DNA from: a virus
IMG/VR virus record: IMGVR_UViG_3300047469_000100
Coordinates: 1 to 38,077 of that record
Strand: one strand, 5' to 3'
DNA: 38,077 nt
Part shown: positions 33,768 through 37,108 of the stretch, in pieces
How positions within the stretch are numbered: position 1 is the stretch's first letter
How the letters are laid out: the number at the start of each line of letters is the position of its first letter
The notes under the pieces: generated by a model
Database searches by the model: none
Told to the model about the DNA's origin: nothing
What the model saw: the letters and a program-made list of their open reading frames with translations, nothing else
Made by a program: the position numbers and the translations under genes

Positions 33768-34004
33768 ATGACGTACGTCTCAGTCACCAAGACGGTCGAT
33801 GTGGACGTGGACGTCGATCTGTCCGACATCGATACCGATGATCTGGAGACGGAACTTGAAAGCCGTGGCGTCGGTGACGTTCGCGGTTCTGATTCCGACG
33901 ACATCCCGAGAATCTTCGAAGCGCTGTACGTCGGCAATGAACAACTCGCGCTCGAAATCACGCGCAAGTTCGTCCAGGACGCCACCGGCCGGCTGCTGCC
34001 CTGA
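33768..34004 (+). CDS. Very acidic 78-aa protein (VDVDVDVDLSDIDTDDLETELE...)
   Basis: An ORF directly upstream of the methyltransferase. About one third of its residues are Asp or Glu. Confidence 0.55.
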   Translation: MTYVSVTKTVDVDVDVDLSDIDTDDLETELESRGVGDVRGSDSDDIPRIFEALYVGNEQLALEITRKFVQDATGRLLP

Positions 34005-34015
34005 CTAGATCCTGC

Positions 34016-35053
34016 ATGACCGCCTACTACAACGAGATCGACCCATACGCCGCGCAGTGGCTGCGCAACCTGATCGCCAAGGGGCATATCGCCGCCGGCG
34101 AAGTTGATGAACGGAGCATAGAGGATGTTCGACCAGACGACCTTCGCGGATTCACCCAGTGCCATTTCTTCGCCGGAATCGGTGTCTGGTCGTACGCGCT
34201 TCGACTCGCCGGCTGGCCTGATGACCGACCTGTTTGGACCGGTTCCTGTCCGTGCCAACCTTTCAGCCAGGCAGGCAAAGGCGCTGGGTTTTCTGACGAG
34301 CGGCACTTATGGCCTGCGTGGGACTGGCTCATCAGCGAGTGCCGACCTGCAGTCATCGTTGGAGAGCAGGTTGCGAGCAAAGACATCGATCCTTGGATCG
34401 ACCTTGTTCAAGCTGACCTGGAAGCGATGGGTTACGCCATCGGGTGTGTCCCGTTCCCGTCTGCGGGCGTCGGTGCTCCGCACATCCGCGACCGCGCGTA
34501 TTTCATGGCCCACGCCGACGGTCAACGACTCCACGGGAAGCGCGTACGCGTACAGCCGGGGAAATCACGACAAGCCAGTTCTGAAACTGGTCGGAGCGGC
34601 GCAGTTGGCATCGTGGCCGACTCCGATGGCAGGCACACCGGCTCAGAAGGGCTACAACGCGGCAGGCAACACGGACAGCAGTCGGCGCACGGTGGCGCTC
34701 GTTGCGGGGTGGCCGACGCCGGCAGCGAGCGATGGCTCGGGCGGCAAGGGATTCAGGCCGGGCGTATCGATGACCGGGCTCATGCCGGACGGCTCGAAAG
34801 TGACGATGGATCTGTCGGCGTCGACGAAGCTCGCATTTCACGAATTGAACCAGCCGGCCCGACTAACGGTTTCTGGCGAGATGCTGATTGGCTGCTCTGC
34901 CGGGACGAAAAGTGGCGGCCAGTTGAACCCGGCTCATTCCCGCTGGCTGATGGCGCTCCCGCCCGAGTGGGACGACTGCGCGCCTACGGTAACGCGATCA
35001 ACGCGCAAGCGGCAGCAGAGTTCATCCGCGCAGCGCGCGAAGCAATCGAATGA
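34016..35053 (+). CDS. DNA (cytosine-5) methyltransferase (345-aa ORF; the middle third is compositionally aberrant)
   Basis: FFAGIGVWS (motif I), GSCPCQPFSQAGKG (motif IV), VGEQV (ENV-like), GAPHIRDRAYF (motif VIII-like), and C-terminal PLADGAPARVGRLRAYGNAINAQAAAEFI (motif X). Confidence 0.75.
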   Translation: MTAYYNEIDPYAAQWLRNLIAKGHIAAGEVDERSIEDVRPDDLRGFTQCHFFAGIGVWSYALRLAGWPDDRPVWTGSCPCQPFSQAGKGAGFSDERHLWPAWDWLISECRPAVIVGEQVASKDIDPWIDLVQADLEAMGYAIGCVPFPSAGVGAPHIRDRAYFMAHADGQRLHGKRVRVQPGKSRQASSETGRSGAVGIVADSDGRHTGSEGLQRGRQHGQQSAHGGARCGVADAGSERWLGRQGIQAGRIDDRAHAGRLESDDGSVGVDEARISRIEPAGPTNGFWRDADWLLCRDEKWRPVEPGSFPLADGAPARVGRLRAYGNAINAQAAAEFIRAAREAIE

Positions 35054-35057
35054 GTGA
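34125..35057 (+). other. 310-codon ORF in the +1 frame, almost fully nested in the methyltransferase ORF; it carries the WPTP-repeat/LNPxxSRWLM features
   Basis: SWPTPTVNDSTGS, SWPTPMAGTPAQKGYN and GWPTPAASDGSGGKG, then GQLNPAHSRWLMALPPEW. GC3 by hand count is about 72% in its 3' part. Whether it is a separate product, a recoded segment or a remnant is unresolved. Confidence 0.5.
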
Positions 35058-35063
35058 GGACAT

Positions 35064-35837
35064 ATGAACACCACTGATAGCAAAGACGCTGTTACGCGCG
35101 AACAGATCGAGCAATGGGCGCAAATCGCTGGCCTGCGCGGGATGCTCCATACAGAAGCTAACATTGAGCGGCTCGCCGACTTCGCGATCTTCGCGCGTCA
35201 AGACTTCGCCGCTGCTCTCGCCACCAATCCGCAGGCAGACGGCGCGACTGTGCCACCGGAAGTCATGGCCGCACTTGATCGCATGTGCACGCCGCTCGAC
35301 GCATCGGTCTTGTCTGGCGCGACGGCATCGGCAGACGCACACAGCATGCAGGTGATCCACGACTATGTTCTCGCCACCGCCCGATCTGACGCTCCGACCG
35401 ATGAGTTGCGCGAGGACTTGCAAGAGGCTCGCGAGATCCTTGAAAACATGGTCCGCAGCATCGAACTCGATGGCAATTACTCTACCGAGGCGACGTGCAC
35501 GTTTCTCCGGCAAGCGTTGATGTGCTTGCCTACCGAACTCGCCGCTACCCACGCTCCCGCGATGGCAGAGACGGTGCGAATCTCATTGCTTGAGAAGGCA
35601 CTGGTGTATGTCGCGCATTCGATGCACAGCGAACCGCAATACATGTTGGCCGAAGGCATCACTCTCGGAGATGTCAGCTACGTGCGTGTGAATGTCGGCA
35701 CTCTGGACGTTTCGGTGCAGATACCTGAGAGTGTCGCTCGCGCGATATACGACACGGCCGCCCAAACGACTGCGCGCAAAATCGCTGAGCGGCGCGATGC
35801 TATTGCCGCTGCATCTGGCGGAGAGCTGGGATCGTGA
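35064..35837 (+). CDS. Hypothetical 257-aa protein
   Basis: ORF with a GAGGAC SD. Confidence 0.6.
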   Translation: MNTTDSKDAVTREQIEQWAQIAGLRGMLHTEANIERLADFAIFARQDFAAALATNPQADGATVPPEVMAALDRMCTPLDASVLSGATASADAHSMQVIHDYVLATARSDAPTDELREDLQEAREILENMVRSIELDGNYSTEATCTFLRQALMCLPTELAATHAPAMAETVRISLLEKALVYVAHSMHSEPQYMLAEGITLGDVSYVRVNVGTLDVSVQIPESVARAIYDTAAQTTARKIAERRDAIAAASGGELGS

Positions 35838-37108
35838 GCGCCATTCGAGTTTGCGCGATCAGCGACATTCACTGCTCTGTCGGTTGTGGGTCTGGTCCCT
35901 GCCTGAAAGAGCAGGCCTTGAACCATCCCAACAGAGTGCAAATGGCCATCCCCAACAGGCCCGAAGCCGGGAATATGCAAATGACGAACGAACAGATCAC
36001 CGAATTGGCCGAACCGTTCTGGCTGAAAGATGCCCAGAAGGAAGGCGAGTTCTTCGACGCCAATGGCTTCGCCCGAGCGCTGCTCTCTGCAAGCAAGCCT
36101 GCCGTGACCGAAGGGTGGAAGCTGGTGCCGGTCGAGCCGACCGAAACGATGGTTGTGGATGGCTTTGAGTCTTGGCCCAGCGCTATTTTCAGCAACCCGA
36201 AAGACTGGGGCGCATTCGAGTCGATGAGCGGATGCCAACAGGCGGCGCATAAAGCCCGGCTTTGCTATGCCGCCATGCTCGCCGCATCCCCTGCCGCGCC
36301 AGCGCAATCGGGGGAGACGGTGGCTCAGTGGCAGTCACGCGTCATTTTGGACGGCGGTAGGCGCGATCAATGGATCAATATCGACGTAGAAGGGGCTGAA
36401 ACGCTGCTCAGAGATTATCAAGACAAGTACGAAGTGCGCGCGCTCTACACCGCCCCGCAGCCATCCCCGACTGCCGTGGTGCTGGACGATGCACGTCTAG
36501 GTTGCTTTGTGCGCAAACTGGTCGAACAGCTATCAGACAGCCCGAAATCGTTCCTCGCTAACGTCCAACGCGCGATTGCAGACTTGAACACGGATCAAGC
36601 TGCTGTGGCGCTGGACGATGAGCGGGCGGTGTTGACGCCTGTCGGCGATGGCTGGCTGGACGACCACATCACGAACAATGTGAAGTTCATGCGGGGCGAA
36701 ATGCTCGGCGTCTACTACTCACAGGGCTGGCAGGACGCAGAGCGCCATCACATCAAGCAGGCAGAGAAGGATGCAGAGCGTCGGCTCGTTTATGGCACCC
36801 GCGCCGCATCCCCGCAACCTGCCGTTTGCGCGACGTGCAACGGGCACGGCATGATCGGCGGTCCCTCGTACTATGCGCCCGATGAAGGTGGCGAGCCATG
36901 CCCCGATTGCAATATCGCGCAACCAGTGGAGCAGACGCGGGCGCTGACCGAAGATGCGGGCGATGCTGCACGCTATCGGTTGCTGCGTCGCGGTCAGCAC
37001 TGGAGTGTGATCAACGGTATCGGCGATACGTTGCGTGGCGAAGACCTAGACGACGCAATCGACGCCGCCATGATCGCCGCGCGTCCGGCAAGCGGAGAGA
37101 CAGAATGA
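35834..37108 (+). CDS. Hypothetical 424-aa protein with an Ea22-like segment and a CxxCxGxG...CxxC zinc motif
   Basis: GWKLVPVEPTETMV and CATCNGHGMIGG...CPDC. GTG start with a GTGA overlap and GGAGAG upstream. An ATG near 35977 is the alternative. Confidence 0.55.
   Translation: MSAIRVCAISDIHCSVGCGSGPCLKEQALNHPNRVQMAIPNRPEAGNMQMTNEQITELAEPFWLKDAQKEGEFFDANGFARALLSASKPAVTEGWKLVPVEPTETMVVDGFESWPSAIFSNPKDWGAFESMSGCQQAAHKARLCYAAMLAASPAAPAQSGETVAQWQSRVILDGGRRDQWINIDVEGAETLLRDYQDKYEVRALYTAPQPSPTAVVLDDARLGCFVRKLVEQLSDSPKSFLANVQRAIADLNTDQAAVALDDERAVLTPVGDGWLDDHITNNVKFMRGEMLGVYYSQGWQDAERHHIKQAEKDAERRLVYGTRAASPQPAVCATCNGHGMIGGPSYYAPDEGGEPCPDCNIAQPVEQTRALTEDAGDAARYRLLRRGQHWSVINGIGDTLRGEDLDDAIDAAMIAARPASGETE

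What the first reader, a model, noticed from the sequence alone, without database searches (positions are those of the whole stretch)
34016..35057. Two roughly 1-kb ORFs overlap in a +1 register inside the C5-methyltransferase gene, with methyltransferase-type signatures split between the frames
Frame A (34016-35053) has the catalytic motifs at both ends: FAGIG, PCQPFS, GEQV and GAPHIRDR at the 5' end, and W..EP..PLADGAPARVGRLRAYGNAI at the 3' end. Its middle third (about 34505-34860) is Arg/Gly/Gln/His-rich and looks like out-of-frame sequence. Frame B (34125-35057, +1) reads like a real protein exactly in that middle third. It has three WPTP modules (SWPTPTVNDSTGS, SWPTPMAGTPAQKGYN, GWPTPAASDGSGGKG) and then GQLNPAHSRWLMALPPEW. 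From memory, that is the target-recognition/motif-IX arrangement of many phage C5-methyltransferases (xPTPxxxDxxxG repeats, then LxPxFxxW(L/M)MGxPxxW). Each WPTP in B corresponds to an (M/V)A(H/D)(A/S)D in A. RWLMALPPEW in B uses the same nucleotides as PLADGAPARVG in A. The two stops are 4 nt apart. By hand count, GC3 of frame A falls from about 81% (36 codons before the overlap) to about 64% once frame B opens, and frame B has about 72% GC3 in its 3' part. My rough estimate is that a same-strand +1 frame of a GC3-rich gene should hit a stop every 25-40 codons, so 310 open codons are unlikely by chance. I found no canonical slippery heptamer at either switch point (about 34503 and about 34970). 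There are three possible readings. The first is genuine dual coding (overprinting). The second is a recoded A-B-A mosaic enzyme. The third is a gene carrying two compensating indels that still keeps both frames open.
Basis: partly seen in the sequence, partly recalled or inferred. Interest (0 to 1): 0.8.

Follow-up and report, generated by a model that had tools for sequence, protein, structure and literature searches.

The report
Two-frame, two-subunit phage cytosine methyltransferase gene
One stretch of phage DNA is read in two overlapping frames to make what are most likely the catalytic half and the DNA-recognition half of a single cytosine methyltransferase; one enzyme of this kind was described in 1995, but the layout turns out to be conserved across thousands of phage and prophage genes where only one frame is usually annotated.

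Summary
ORF A (34016-35053, 345 aa) and ORF B (34125-35057, 310 aa, +1) overlap for about 930 nt. This is genuine dual coding, not chance, an assembly error or a frameshift-recoded gene. Both frames are open in about 150 independent homologous loci, while the third frame has 6-22 stops. Frame A stays stop-free across its junk-looking middle in 64/64 loci, although synonymous shuffles of B give about 3.4 stops. Four-fold sites of A are free where A is coded alone (identity 0.45) and nearly frozen where B is also constrained (0.80; p = 1e-8). B's ATG is made by a GAT Asp codon in 47/52 loci. A folds as the C5-methyltransferase catalytic domain (motifs I-VIII, X) with a disordered 108-aa linker. 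B carries shuffled WPTP modules plus a block that is homologous to the target-recognition region and motif IX of single-chain relatives (BLASTP 5e-11 via a close relative; hhalign 89%). The most likely mechanism is a non-covalent alpha/beta enzyme like M.EcoHK31I. In scans of viral contigs the layout was the majority form (109/136 loci with a GFPCQDI catalytic motif), and B-type proteins form 18,113 clusters. Assembly and methylation activity are inferred, not shown.

The parts
34016..35053 (+). Frame A ORF (345 aa), the alpha-like catalytic subunit of a C5-cytosine methyltransferase
   Evidence: ORF list. PF00145 at 45.5 bits against a cutoff of 22. phrog_363 E 9e-92. In the AF2 model aa 1-170 have pLDDT 85-96. 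Foldseek matches the catalytic domains of HhaI/HaeIII/DNMT1 over 165-187 columns only.
34125..35057 (+). Frame B ORF (310 aa, +1), the beta-like subunit carrying target-recognition modules and motif IX
   Evidence: ORF list. phrog_1008 E 1e-39. More than 7162 homologous called proteins, none with a Pfam domain. 18,113 representatives at 50% identity. Homology to the TRD + motif IX region of a single-chain MTase.
34113..34127 (+). Frame B initiation site: GGAG (34113-34116), an 8-nt spacer, then ATG (34125-34127), built from frame A codons CGG-AGC...GAT-G
   Evidence: The Asp codon at this position is GAT followed by G in 47/52 loci, against 31% GAT (214/700) at other Asp codons of the same gene half. 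GGAG lies about 12 nt upstream in most loci. Most B-type proteins in the representative library start at this same profile position.
34166..34495 (+). Frame A catalytic motifs: I FFAGIG (34166-34183), IV PCQPFS (34250-34267), VI GEQV (34361-34372), VIII HIRDR (34481-34495)
   Evidence: Read from the translation. These positions are invariant in the alignment of 63 A-type proteins. HMMER alignment to M.HhaI covers motifs IV-VIII.
34230..34517 (+). Dual-constrained segment 1 (about 96 codons): A motifs IV-VIII over B's conserved N-terminal region (ANLSARQAK...LTWKRW...RLRASVLRTS)
   Evidence: All three codon positions are conserved. Identity at four-fold sites of A is 0.75 here against 0.45 in single-coded parts. 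This part of B is predicted as a helix plus beta-hairpin with pLDDT 77-81.
34506..34853 (+). Frame B array of three WPTP modules (34506-34613, 34614-34709, 34710-34853). In frame A the same DNA is an Arg/Gly-rich linker (A aa 171-278, about 34526-34849)
   Evidence: B's third codon position is the least conserved here, so B alone is constrained at the protein level. Frame A has 0 stops in 64/64 loci against 3.4 expected. The A linker has pLDDT 33-41. The modules belong to about 44 types in 85 architectures; the window's are types 0-1-3.
34853..34985 (+). Dual-constrained segment 2 (about 44 codons): B's C-terminal block with motif IX (QLNPAHSRWLMALPPEW, 34920-34970) over A's conserved block NGFWRDADWLLCRDEKWRPVEPGSFPLADGAPARVGR
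   Evidence: Identity at four-fold sites of A is 0.88, and many sites are invariant in 52 loci. The 3' boundary is sharp: 34982 is invariant and 34988 is free. hhalign of the B family against a single-chain MTase gives 89% probability, E 2e-6, for this block.
34986..35053 (+). Frame A-only tail: motif X GNAI (34988-34999) and the C-terminal helix. B's tail over the same DNA is unconstrained
   Evidence: B's second codon position (= A's third) is the least conserved. Four-fold site identity is 0.46. The helix at A aa 330-344 has pLDDT of about 90.

Best explanation
The gene is a same-strand dual-coding locus that most likely makes the two subunits of one DNA cytosine-5 methyltransferase from a single transcript. 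Frame A, starting at ATG 34016, gives an alpha-like chain. It holds the AdoMet-binding and catalytic domain (motifs I, IV, VI, VIII), then a disordered linker of about 108 aa whose sequence is free but which must stay stop-free, then a conserved C-terminal block with motif X. Frame B, starting at ATG 34125 behind a GGAG that is written into frame A's codons, gives a beta-like chain. It holds a conserved N-terminal helix-hairpin region overprinted on A's motifs IV-VIII (a possible docking element), then three WPTP target-recognition modules, then motif IX. The two chains would assemble non-covalently, as M.EcoHK31I alpha and beta do, and methylate phage DNA, probably to escape host restriction. 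Shown here: both ORFs, their conservation, purifying selection on both frames, B's maintained start site, A's fold and disordered linker, and the homology of B's modules and motif IX to the in-frame variable region of single-chain relatives. Inferred: translation of both products, their assembly, enzymatic activity, the specificity role of the modules, and the anti-restriction role.
For: Openness: both frames are open in about 78 loci retrieved through B (the control frame has 6-22 stops). The +1 ORF is 225-446 codons in 73 species-level bacterial loci retrieved through A alone (0 stops in 50 of them; control mean 11). Frame A has 0 stops in the middle in 64/64 loci, against 3.4 expected from synonymous shuffles of B (chance of zero about 0.03 per locus). 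The window's own genes have one +1-frame stop per 32 codons. Selection: the codon-position profiles give five segments, A-only, dual, B-only, dual, A-only. Four-fold sites have identity 0.45 in single-coded parts and 0.80 in dual parts, p = 1.3e-8. B's start is GAT|G in 47/52 loci, against 31% GAT elsewhere, with GGAG upstream. Roles: A hits PF00145 and folds as the catalytic domain only, with a disordered aa 171-278. B's C-terminal block matches the motif IX position of a single-chain C5-MTase (hhalign 89%, E 2e-6). A close relative's B protein aligns with that enzyme's module array and motif IX at 38% identity over 155 columns, E 5e-11. Generality: EWLMGFP-type blocks lie +1 of PCQ in 80 of about 117 loci, and GNAV follows in the PCQ frame in about 100 of them, almost always exactly 15 codons downstream. 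109/136 GFPCQDI loci carry the block in +1. The same layout occurs in a low-GC T4-like phage, N15 gene 58 and epsilon15. Precedent: in M.EcoHK31I beta is encoded in another frame inside alpha, alpha has motifs I-VIII and X, beta has IX, and both are required (PMC2836561; PMC3404938).
Against: There is no direct evidence here that either product is made, that they bind each other, or that the enzyme is active. B alone gives a poor AF2 model (mean pLDDT 55.8) with no fold match, and the B profile has no hit to PDB sequences. The direct comparison with M.HhaI motif IX is not significant (E 0.24). The window's own B protein matches the single-chain enzyme only weakly (E 0.002 over 23 residues); the strong link runs through a family profile and a close relative. 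Frame A has no obvious Shine-Dalgarno sequence. In M.EcoHK31I the TRD is ascribed to alpha, unlike here. Sequence homology to M.EcoHK31I could not be tested.
Confidence: 0.8

Rival explanations
1. Recoded A-B-A mosaic: ribosomes shift +1 near 34505 and -1 near 34970 to make one canonical single-chain methyltransferase, and the long ORFs are incidental.
For: The A-B-A order (I-VIII, modules, IX, X) is exactly the order found in one frame in single-chain relatives L306 and L322. Motif IX is in B and motif X is in A.
Against: Frame A is kept stop-free through the middle in 64/64 loci, which a mosaic does not require. B is under selection from about 34230, some 90 codons upstream of the first switch point, and has a maintained ATG and GGAG. 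A's conserved block from 34853 and B's motif IX block use the same nucleotides, so one chain cannot contain both, and motif X's leading residues (from 34961) overlap B's PPEW (to 34970). No conserved slippery heptamer exists at either junction. The spliced sequence does not improve the Pfam or NCBIfam match.
Confidence: 0.04
2. Frame B encodes a real protein that is not part of the methyltransferase, for example an independent overprinted gene with a regulatory or anti-defence function, and alpha works alone.
For: B has no Pfam or NCBIfam family, no PDB sequence or fold match, and folds poorly alone. Its N-terminal conserved region has no counterpart in single-chain enzymes.
Against: B's modules and C-terminal block are homologous to the in-frame variable region and motif IX of single-chain C5-MTases. 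A's model shows no folded domain between motif VIII and its C-terminal block. In C5-MTases all specific DNA contacts are made by the small domain (PMC3404938). In the precedent enzyme both chains are required.
Confidence: 0.08
3. Frame B is a non-functional by-product: it is open and conserved because of nucleotide-level constraints (RNA structure, recombination, GC-rich composition) on a gene that codes only in frame A.
For: GC-rich genomes carry many long spurious ORFs; several lie on the opposite strand here. Within-region shuffles of A keep B open in 39% of trials in the 5' part.
Against: In the middle region the wobble pattern is that of frame B (b3 least conserved), and frame A's protein there is not conserved. 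The same +1 ORF exists in a low-GC T4-like phage (232 codons). The start codon is maintained against codon preference. The modules are shuffled as protein-like units. Gene finders call B in more than 18,000 clusters.
Confidence: 0.02
4. Assembly or sequencing artefact, or a decaying gene with two compensating indels.
For: Rare relatives do look like indel variants: L216 and L302 have PCQ and motif IX fused in one frame, and phage PMG1 lacks frame A's 5' end.
Against: The same frame geometry recurs in about 150 independent loci from isolates, prophages and metagenomes across Alpha-, Beta- and Gammaproteobacteria and their phages, with selection on both frames.
Confidence: 0.01

Closest known systems
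M.EcoHK31I (E. coli; recognises YGGCCR), a two-polypeptide C5-methyltransferase
   Same: Beta is encoded on the same strand in a different reading frame inside the alpha gene. Alpha has motifs I-VIII and X, beta has motif IX, and both are needed. Internal Met codons of beta can serve as starts, and beta's N-terminal part mediates association (PMC2836561; PMC3404938). Here A has I-VIII and X, B has IX, B starts 109 nt inside A, and alternative in-frame ATGs exist.
   Different: The literature places the TRD in alpha; here the recognition modules are in B and A's variable region is an unconstrained linker. B is nearly as long as A, ends 4 nt past A's stop, and shares about 140 codons of two-frame constraint with A, including over catalytic motifs IV-VIII. 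This gene sits in a phage early region with no restriction enzyme recognised among the 7 neighbouring ORFs scanned. Sequence homology to M.EcoHK31I was not testable here.
M.AquI (recognises CYCGRG), alpha/beta C5-methyltransferase
   Same: A natural C5-MTase made of two chains that complement each other (PMC3404938).
   Different: M.AquI is cut once within the variable region: alpha has I-VIII and beta has IX-X. To my knowledge it is not encoded by a long out-of-frame overlap. Here motif X stays with the catalytic chain and the small-domain part is excised into another frame.
Single-chain C5-methyltransferases with LLPTP modules (actinophage-like; loci L306 and L322)
   Same: Homologous catalytic domain (PF00145), homologous module array and motif IX (E 5e-11; hhalign 89%), and the same order I-VIII, modules, IX, X.
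   Different: Everything is in one reading frame, and the +1 frame is closed in L306. They lack A's linker, A's conserved pre-motif-X block and B's N-terminal region.
Multispecific Bacillus phage C5-methyltransferases (SPR, phi3T, rho11s type; from my own knowledge, not tested here)
   Same: Several target-recognising modules sit in tandem in the variable region between motifs VIII and IX and are combined differently in different phages. Here there are 1-5 or more modules, about 44 types and 85 architectures.
   Different: Those enzymes are single polypeptides, and their modules have experimentally assigned specificities. No specificity is known for the WPTP modules, and no sequence comparison was made.
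Classical overprinted overlapping genes of viruses
   Same: A long same-strand overlap with purifying selection on both frames, plus newly created protein sequence (A's linker, B's N-terminal region).
   Different: The second frame is not a de novo gene. Most of B is an old domain (TRD + IX) that has been moved into another frame, and the two products are most likely parts of one enzyme.

Membership tests
C5-cytosine DNA methyltransferase (PF00145 / Dcm superfamily) | Profile match above the curated threshold | tested here: met
   Frame A scores 45.5 bits on PF00145 against a cutoff of 22, aa 74-176. TIGR00675 scores only 34.8 against 100.65.
C5-cytosine DNA methyltransferase (PF00145 / Dcm superfamily) | Catalytic-domain motifs I (FxGxG), IV (PCQ, catalytic Cys), VI (ENV-like), VIII (QxRxR-like) and X (GNxV), with a Rossmann-type fold | tested here: met
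   FFAGIG, PCQPFS, GEQV, HIRDR and GNAI are in frame A and invariant across 63 homologues. The AF2 model matches HhaI/HaeIII/DNMT1 catalytic domains at E about 1e-7 to 1e-6.
C5-cytosine DNA methyltransferase (PF00145 / Dcm superfamily) | Small domain (TRD + motif IX) in the same polypeptide, between motifs VIII and X | tested here: not met
   Frame A has a disordered, unconserved linker there. The homologous region is in frame B.
C5-cytosine DNA methyltransferase (PF00145 / Dcm superfamily) | Transfers a methyl group to C5 of cytosine in a defined sequence | not testable with these tools
   Needs bisulfite or nanopore methylome data, or a restriction-protection assay.
M.EcoHK31I-type alpha/beta C5-methyltransferase with out-of-frame nested beta | Alpha has motifs I-VIII and X but lacks motif IX | tested here: met
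   No motif IX-like block was seen in frame A; the block is in +1.
M.EcoHK31I-type alpha/beta C5-methyltransferase with out-of-frame nested beta | Beta is encoded on the same strand, in another frame, within the alpha gene | tested here: met
   B runs 34125-35057 inside A 34016-35053, in the +1 frame. B's stop lies 4 nt beyond A's, so it is almost but not strictly nested.
M.EcoHK31I-type alpha/beta C5-methyltransferase with out-of-frame nested beta | Beta carries motif IX | tested here: met
   The B family block 252-282 matches the segment about 15 residues upstream of motif X in a single-chain MTase (hhalign 89%, E 2e-6; BLASTP E 0.002). The direct match to HhaI motif IX has the right register but is not significant.
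M.EcoHK31I-type alpha/beta C5-methyltransferase with out-of-frame nested beta | TRD located in alpha (as stated for M.EcoHK31I) | tested here: not met
   The recognition modules are in B. A's variable region is unconstrained.
M.EcoHK31I-type alpha/beta C5-methyltransferase with out-of-frame nested beta | Both polypeptides are made and both are required for activity | not testable with these tools
   Only evolutionary evidence is available: selection on both frames and a maintained start site.
M.EcoHK31I-type alpha/beta C5-methyltransferase with out-of-frame nested beta | Sequence homology to M.EcoHK31I alpha and beta | not testable with these tools
   The 1995 paper and the supplement that might give the sequence are not held.
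Programmed ribosomal frameshift gene | Conserved slippery sequence at the shift site, with the zero frame ending soon after it | tested here: not met
   No conserved heptamer at J1 or J2 across about 55 distinct sequences. Both frames continue open for more than 100 codons past each junction.
De novo overprinted overlapping gene | The second frame is a young protein with no homologues outside the overlap | tested here: not met
   B's modules and motif IX are homologous to in-frame parts of single-chain enzymes. Only B aa 36-127 and A's linker look like newly created sequence; their age was not tested.

The most novel reading that the evidence does not exclude
The split-frame layout is the standard design of a very large group of phage and prophage C5-methyltransferases rather than a curiosity of one enzyme. 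In this reading the DNA-recognition subunit is a recombination-shuffled array of modules written in the +1 frame of a linker whose only requirement is to lack stops. That would let specificity, possibly multi-specificity, change by module exchange without touching the catalytic chain. The N-terminal region of the recognition subunit would then be a newly born, overprinted docking domain. It would follow that many genes annotated as 'DNA cytosine methyltransferase' are incomplete as annotated, and that codon-optimised synthetic copies would be inactive.
Probability: 0.35. Interest if true: 0.8.

Novelty: new member of a known kind. Interest (0 to 1): 0.62.

Why it matters
Annotation and experiments: RefSeq/PGAP names only frame A at the 25 listed matches among 63 E. 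coli genomes with a match. Frame B products have no Pfam or NCBIfam family, although they form 18,113 clusters at 50% identity. If both chains are required, cloning frame A alone or codon-optimising it would give a dead enzyme. That could confuse methylome and anti-restriction studies of phages such as N15, epsilon15, the K1 phages and Burkholderia prophages.

Overlapping genes: about 930 nt of same-strand overlap, with about 140 codons under selection in both frames, conserved across three proteobacterial classes. To my knowledge that would be among the longest and most widespread overlaps in dsDNA phages. It apparently arose by moving an existing domain into another frame rather than by inventing a new gene.

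Enzymology: the paper read here lists only two natural two-chain C5-methyltransferases (PMC3404938). This analysis suggests they are common. It also offers a natural set of about 44 module types for specificity engineering of split methyltransferases.

Tried and rejected
1. Splicing A(1-164) + B(WPTP...PPEWDDCA) + A(RLRAYGNAI...) into a mosaic did not improve the PF00145 or TIGR00675 match.
2. The B profile against PDB sequences gave no hit at E <= 10. The AF2 model of B was too poor for a fold search, and its best hits (cyanase and others) are meaningless.
I treated this as a lead only.
4. Odd-length B-type hits (P0058, P0084 and others) were checked as possible A/B fusions. They are pure B proteins with up to about 9 modules.
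5. Literature searches for 'Mte8', overprinting plus methyltransferase, split-frame C5-MTases in phages and the motif strings WLMGFP/WLMGLP found no description of this family. One paper on overlapping genes in a Pseudomonas phage is unrelated, and the BASEL paper gives no functional data.
6. The original M.EcoHK31I paper (PMC306636) and the NAR 2010 supplement are not held, so no sequence comparison was possible.
7. The scan for an internal promoter or terminator found no promoter-like site and no + strand terminator.
8. Within-region synonymous shuffling of A is a weak null for B's 5' part (chance of zero stops 0.39), because the codon usage is already shaped by B. I replaced it with the window's own +1-frame stop density and the four-fold-site test.
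Full report
OBSERVATION. The window holds two same-strand ORFs. Frame A runs 34016-35053 (345 aa) and frame B runs 34125-35057 (310 aa, +1 relative to A). GC3 of A is 0.81 before the overlap and 0.59-0.65 after it; GC3 of B is 0.79 in the middle. In the window's own long genes the +1 frame has about 155 stops in about 4915 codons, one per 32, and the longest open +1 run elsewhere is 148 codons. That puts the chance of 310 open codons at about 5e-5.

BOTH FRAMES MATCH PROTEIN FAMILIES. Frame A hits PF00145 (45.5 bits, aa 74-176) and phrog_363 (E 9e-92). Frame B has no Pfam or NCBIfam family but hits phrog_1008 (E 1e-39), which is also labelled DNA methyltransferase. In the large protein collection, A-type proteins (PF00145, named 'DNA cytosine methyltransferase') filled the 8000-candidate limit. 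B-type proteins gave 7162 hits of about 300 aa, with no Pfam domain, a few of them named 'Mte8-like protein'. Several contigs hold one of each. An exhaustive profile search finds 18,113 B-type representatives at 50% identity, 7,719 of them at E <= 1e-30, and most start at the same position.

CONSERVATION OF THE TWO ORFS. Both frames are open over about 300 codons in five annotated phages of Bordetella, Xanthomonas, Erwinia, Pseudomonas and Burkholderia. The Xanthomonas record annotates both ORFs. In 80 viral contigs retrieved with B, both frames are open and the third frame has 6-22 stops. That retrieval favours an intact B, so I also retrieved 80 loci with A alone, from one genome per bacterial species. 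In 73 unique loci from Alpha-, Beta- and Gammaproteobacteria the +1 ORF is 225-446 codons. It has 0 stops in 50 loci, 1 in 22 and 2 in one, counted up to 30 nt before A's end; I take the single stops to be B's own terminator but did not confirm this per locus. The +2 control frame averages 11 stops.

Frame A's middle looks like out-of-frame sequence and is not conserved as protein. Yet it has 0 stops in 64/64 unique loci, whereas synonymous shuffles of B give 3.4 stops on average, with a chance of zero of about 0.03 per locus and 0.02 for the window.

SELECTION ON BOTH FRAMES. Codon-position conservation, computed on alignments anchored on A and on B, divides the gene into five segments:
- 34016 to about 34230: A alone is constrained (A's third position is free).
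- About 34230 to 34517: all three positions are constrained.
- 34518 to about 34850: B alone is constrained (B's third position is free and A's protein is not conserved).
- About 34853 to 34985: all three positions are constrained.
- 34986 to the end: A alone is constrained.

At four-fold-degenerate sites of conserved A codons, third-base identity is 0.45 in the single-coded segments (28 sites) and 0.80 in the dual segments (56 sites), Mann-Whitney p = 1.3e-8. Many of these sites are invariant in 52 loci, and the 3' boundary is sharp between 34982 and 34988. B's ATG is created by the Asp codon of A's SIEDV motif. That codon is GAT followed by G in 47/52 loci, against 31% GAT at other Asp codons, and a GGAG lies about 12 nt upstream in most loci. 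There is no promoter-like site and no + strand terminator inside the gene.

WHAT THE TWO PRODUCTS ARE. The AF2 model of A has a confident domain at aa 1-170 (pLDDT 85-96), a disordered stretch at aa 171-278 (pLDDT 33-41), a weak hairpin, and a confident C-terminal helix after GNAI. Foldseek matches only the catalytic domain of HhaI, HaeIII, DNMT1 and others, over 165-187 columns. B alone folds poorly (mean pLDDT 55.8), except for a helix plus hairpin at aa 70-117, which is the part overprinted on A's motifs VI-VIII, and a small element at aa 215-240.

B's middle is an array of WPTP modules of 30-45 aa. There are 1-5 per protein in my loci and up to about 9 elsewhere. They fall into about 44 types, occur at varying positions, and give 85 architectures among about 98 loci.

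The identity of B comes from relatives. I scanned viral contigs for a back-translated EWLMGFP, without reference to frame A. In 80 of about 117 unique loci the catalytic PCQ motif lies in the -1 frame relative to it. GNAV lies downstream in that same frame in about 100 of the 117, almost always exactly 15 codons downstream.

I then scanned from the catalytic motif GFPCQDI and scored all three frames with an HMM of B's C-terminal block. The block is in +1 in 109 of 136 loci (80%), in-frame in 5, in +2 in 1, and absent in 21. Two of the in-frame cases, L306 and L322, are true single-chain C5-MTases. In one frame they read motifs I-VIII, then LLPTP modules, then SPAFVEWLMGLP, then LGNGVVPQQA. A third, L395, has IX and X in frame A and only the modules in +1.

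The B family profile matches L306 residues 331-367, which end about 15 residues before motif X, with 89% probability and E 2e-6. The B protein of Bordetella phage PHB09 aligns with L306 residues 219-364 at 38% identity over 155 columns, E 5e-11. L306 itself is PF00145 at E 6.5e-36. So frame B encodes the variable (target-recognition) region and motif IX, which single-chain relatives carry between motifs VIII and X.

MECHANISM. The best-supported reading is two polypeptides from one transcript. Alpha (frame A) is the catalytic large domain, closed by motif X and held together by a linker that needs only to be stop-free. Beta (frame B) is the recognition part plus motif IX, with an N-terminal region that may dock on alpha. 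This is the architecture reported for M.EcoHK31I, where beta is encoded entirely in a different reading frame of alpha, alpha has motifs I-VIII and X, beta has motif IX, both are required, and beta's N-terminal part mediates association (PMC2836561; PMC3404938). Assembly, activity and the anti-restriction role are inferences. Of the 7 neighbouring ORFs scanned, one is repressor-like and none matched a restriction enzyme, so the setting looks like a phage early region.

RIVALS. Recoding into an A-B-A chain is rejected for four reasons. A is kept open where recoding does not need it. B is constrained and has its own start about 90 codons upstream of the first junction. The conserved blocks of A and B use the same nucleotides at the second junction. 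No slippery site is conserved. Artefact or compensating indels are rejected by the breadth of conservation; rare relatives do look like indel variants (L216, L302, PMG1). A non-functional B is rejected by the frame-B wobble pattern and by the 232-codon +1 ORF in a low-GC T4-like phage. A functional B unrelated to methylation remains possible at low probability.

COMPARISON AND NOVELTY. The kind is known from one enzyme, M.EcoHK31I, which the literature treats as an exception alongside M.AquI. This gene differs in three ways. The recognition modules are in beta. The overlap covers nearly the whole gene, with about 140 codons under two-frame constraint. It appears to be an orphan phage gene. Homology to M.EcoHK31I itself could not be tested. 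I found no paper describing the layout for this family or its prevalence. Database annotators have sometimes called both ORFs, in the K1 phages and in Xanthomonas PhiXhv-5. At the 25 listed E. coli genome matches, only frame A is annotated. I file it as a new member of a known kind, with the note that the kind seems far more common than recognised.

Noticed in passing
L070:2371-2862 (also P0159 and P0139; L054 has a shorter, different insert): An insertion of about 490 nt sits exactly between B's motif IX block and A's motif X block. In B's phase, starting right after B's stop, it encodes an HNH endonuclease (PF01844, 22.3 bits against a cutoff of 21.4) that ends in a duplicated 'WLMALPPEWD...' tail. 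Frame A reads straight through it (A becomes 496 aa), and A's reading of the insert is conserved between L070 and P0159. That makes a third overlapping gene inside an already dual-coded gene.
   Followed up: partly
L395 (- strand, GFPCQDI site at 953 of the reverse complement): An intermediate architecture. Frame A carries motifs I-VIII, a junk-like linker, and then both motif IX (LNPDWVEWLMGYP) and motif X (LGNSVVP) in frame. The +1 frame carries only the N-terminal region and three LPTP modules and stops before motif IX. The position of the frame change therefore differs between lineages.
   Followed up: partly
L322 (+ strand, GFPCQDI site at 2530): A single-chain enzyme with modules, IX and X all in frame A. 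Its +1 frame still reads a B-type N-terminal region ('SLFEDSEPSSVTWPKWGTTRHG...LLPTPTA') before stopping. This may be a relic of, or a step towards, the split layout.
   Followed up: no
L004 (Pseudomonas phage PMG1, NC_016765.1), L216, L302: These look like indel variants. In PMG1 frame A lacks its 5' end, and the record annotates only the frame-B ORF as 'DNA methyltransferase'. In L216 and L302 the PCQ motif and motif IX lie in one frame. They may be sequencing errors, pseudogenes or natural fusions.
   Followed up: no
window 33768-34016: The upstream ORF (78 aa) is very acidic, with a 'VDVDVDVDLSDIDTDDLETELE' run, and has no PHROG match. Frame A's ATG follows that ORF's stop by 11 nt and has no recognisable Shine-Dalgarno sequence. 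Frame A may be translated by coupling, whereas frame B has its own GGAG.
   Followed up: no
window 35064-35837 and 35789-37108: The downstream ORFs (257 aa with no PHROG match; 439 aa matching only PHROGs of unknown function) follow the methyltransferase directly. The 257-aa ORF starts 7 nt after B's stop.
   Followed up: no
L087 (Escherichia phage Aragogtheria, Krischvirus, T4-like): A short member of the family lies between the two ribonucleotide reductase subunit genes: frame A is 279 aa and the +1 ORF is 232 codons with LNPRFPCWLMGYPQQW. It shows the layout also occurs in a large lytic, low-GC phage.
   Followed up: partly
window 34016-34530 (frame A model): The best Foldseek hit by E-value for frame A's catalytic domain is 8yf3, a DNA cytosine C5-carboxymethyltransferase (E 2.7e-7), only marginally ahead of HaeIII and HhaI. 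I place no weight on this, but the transferred group has not been established for this family.
   Followed up: no
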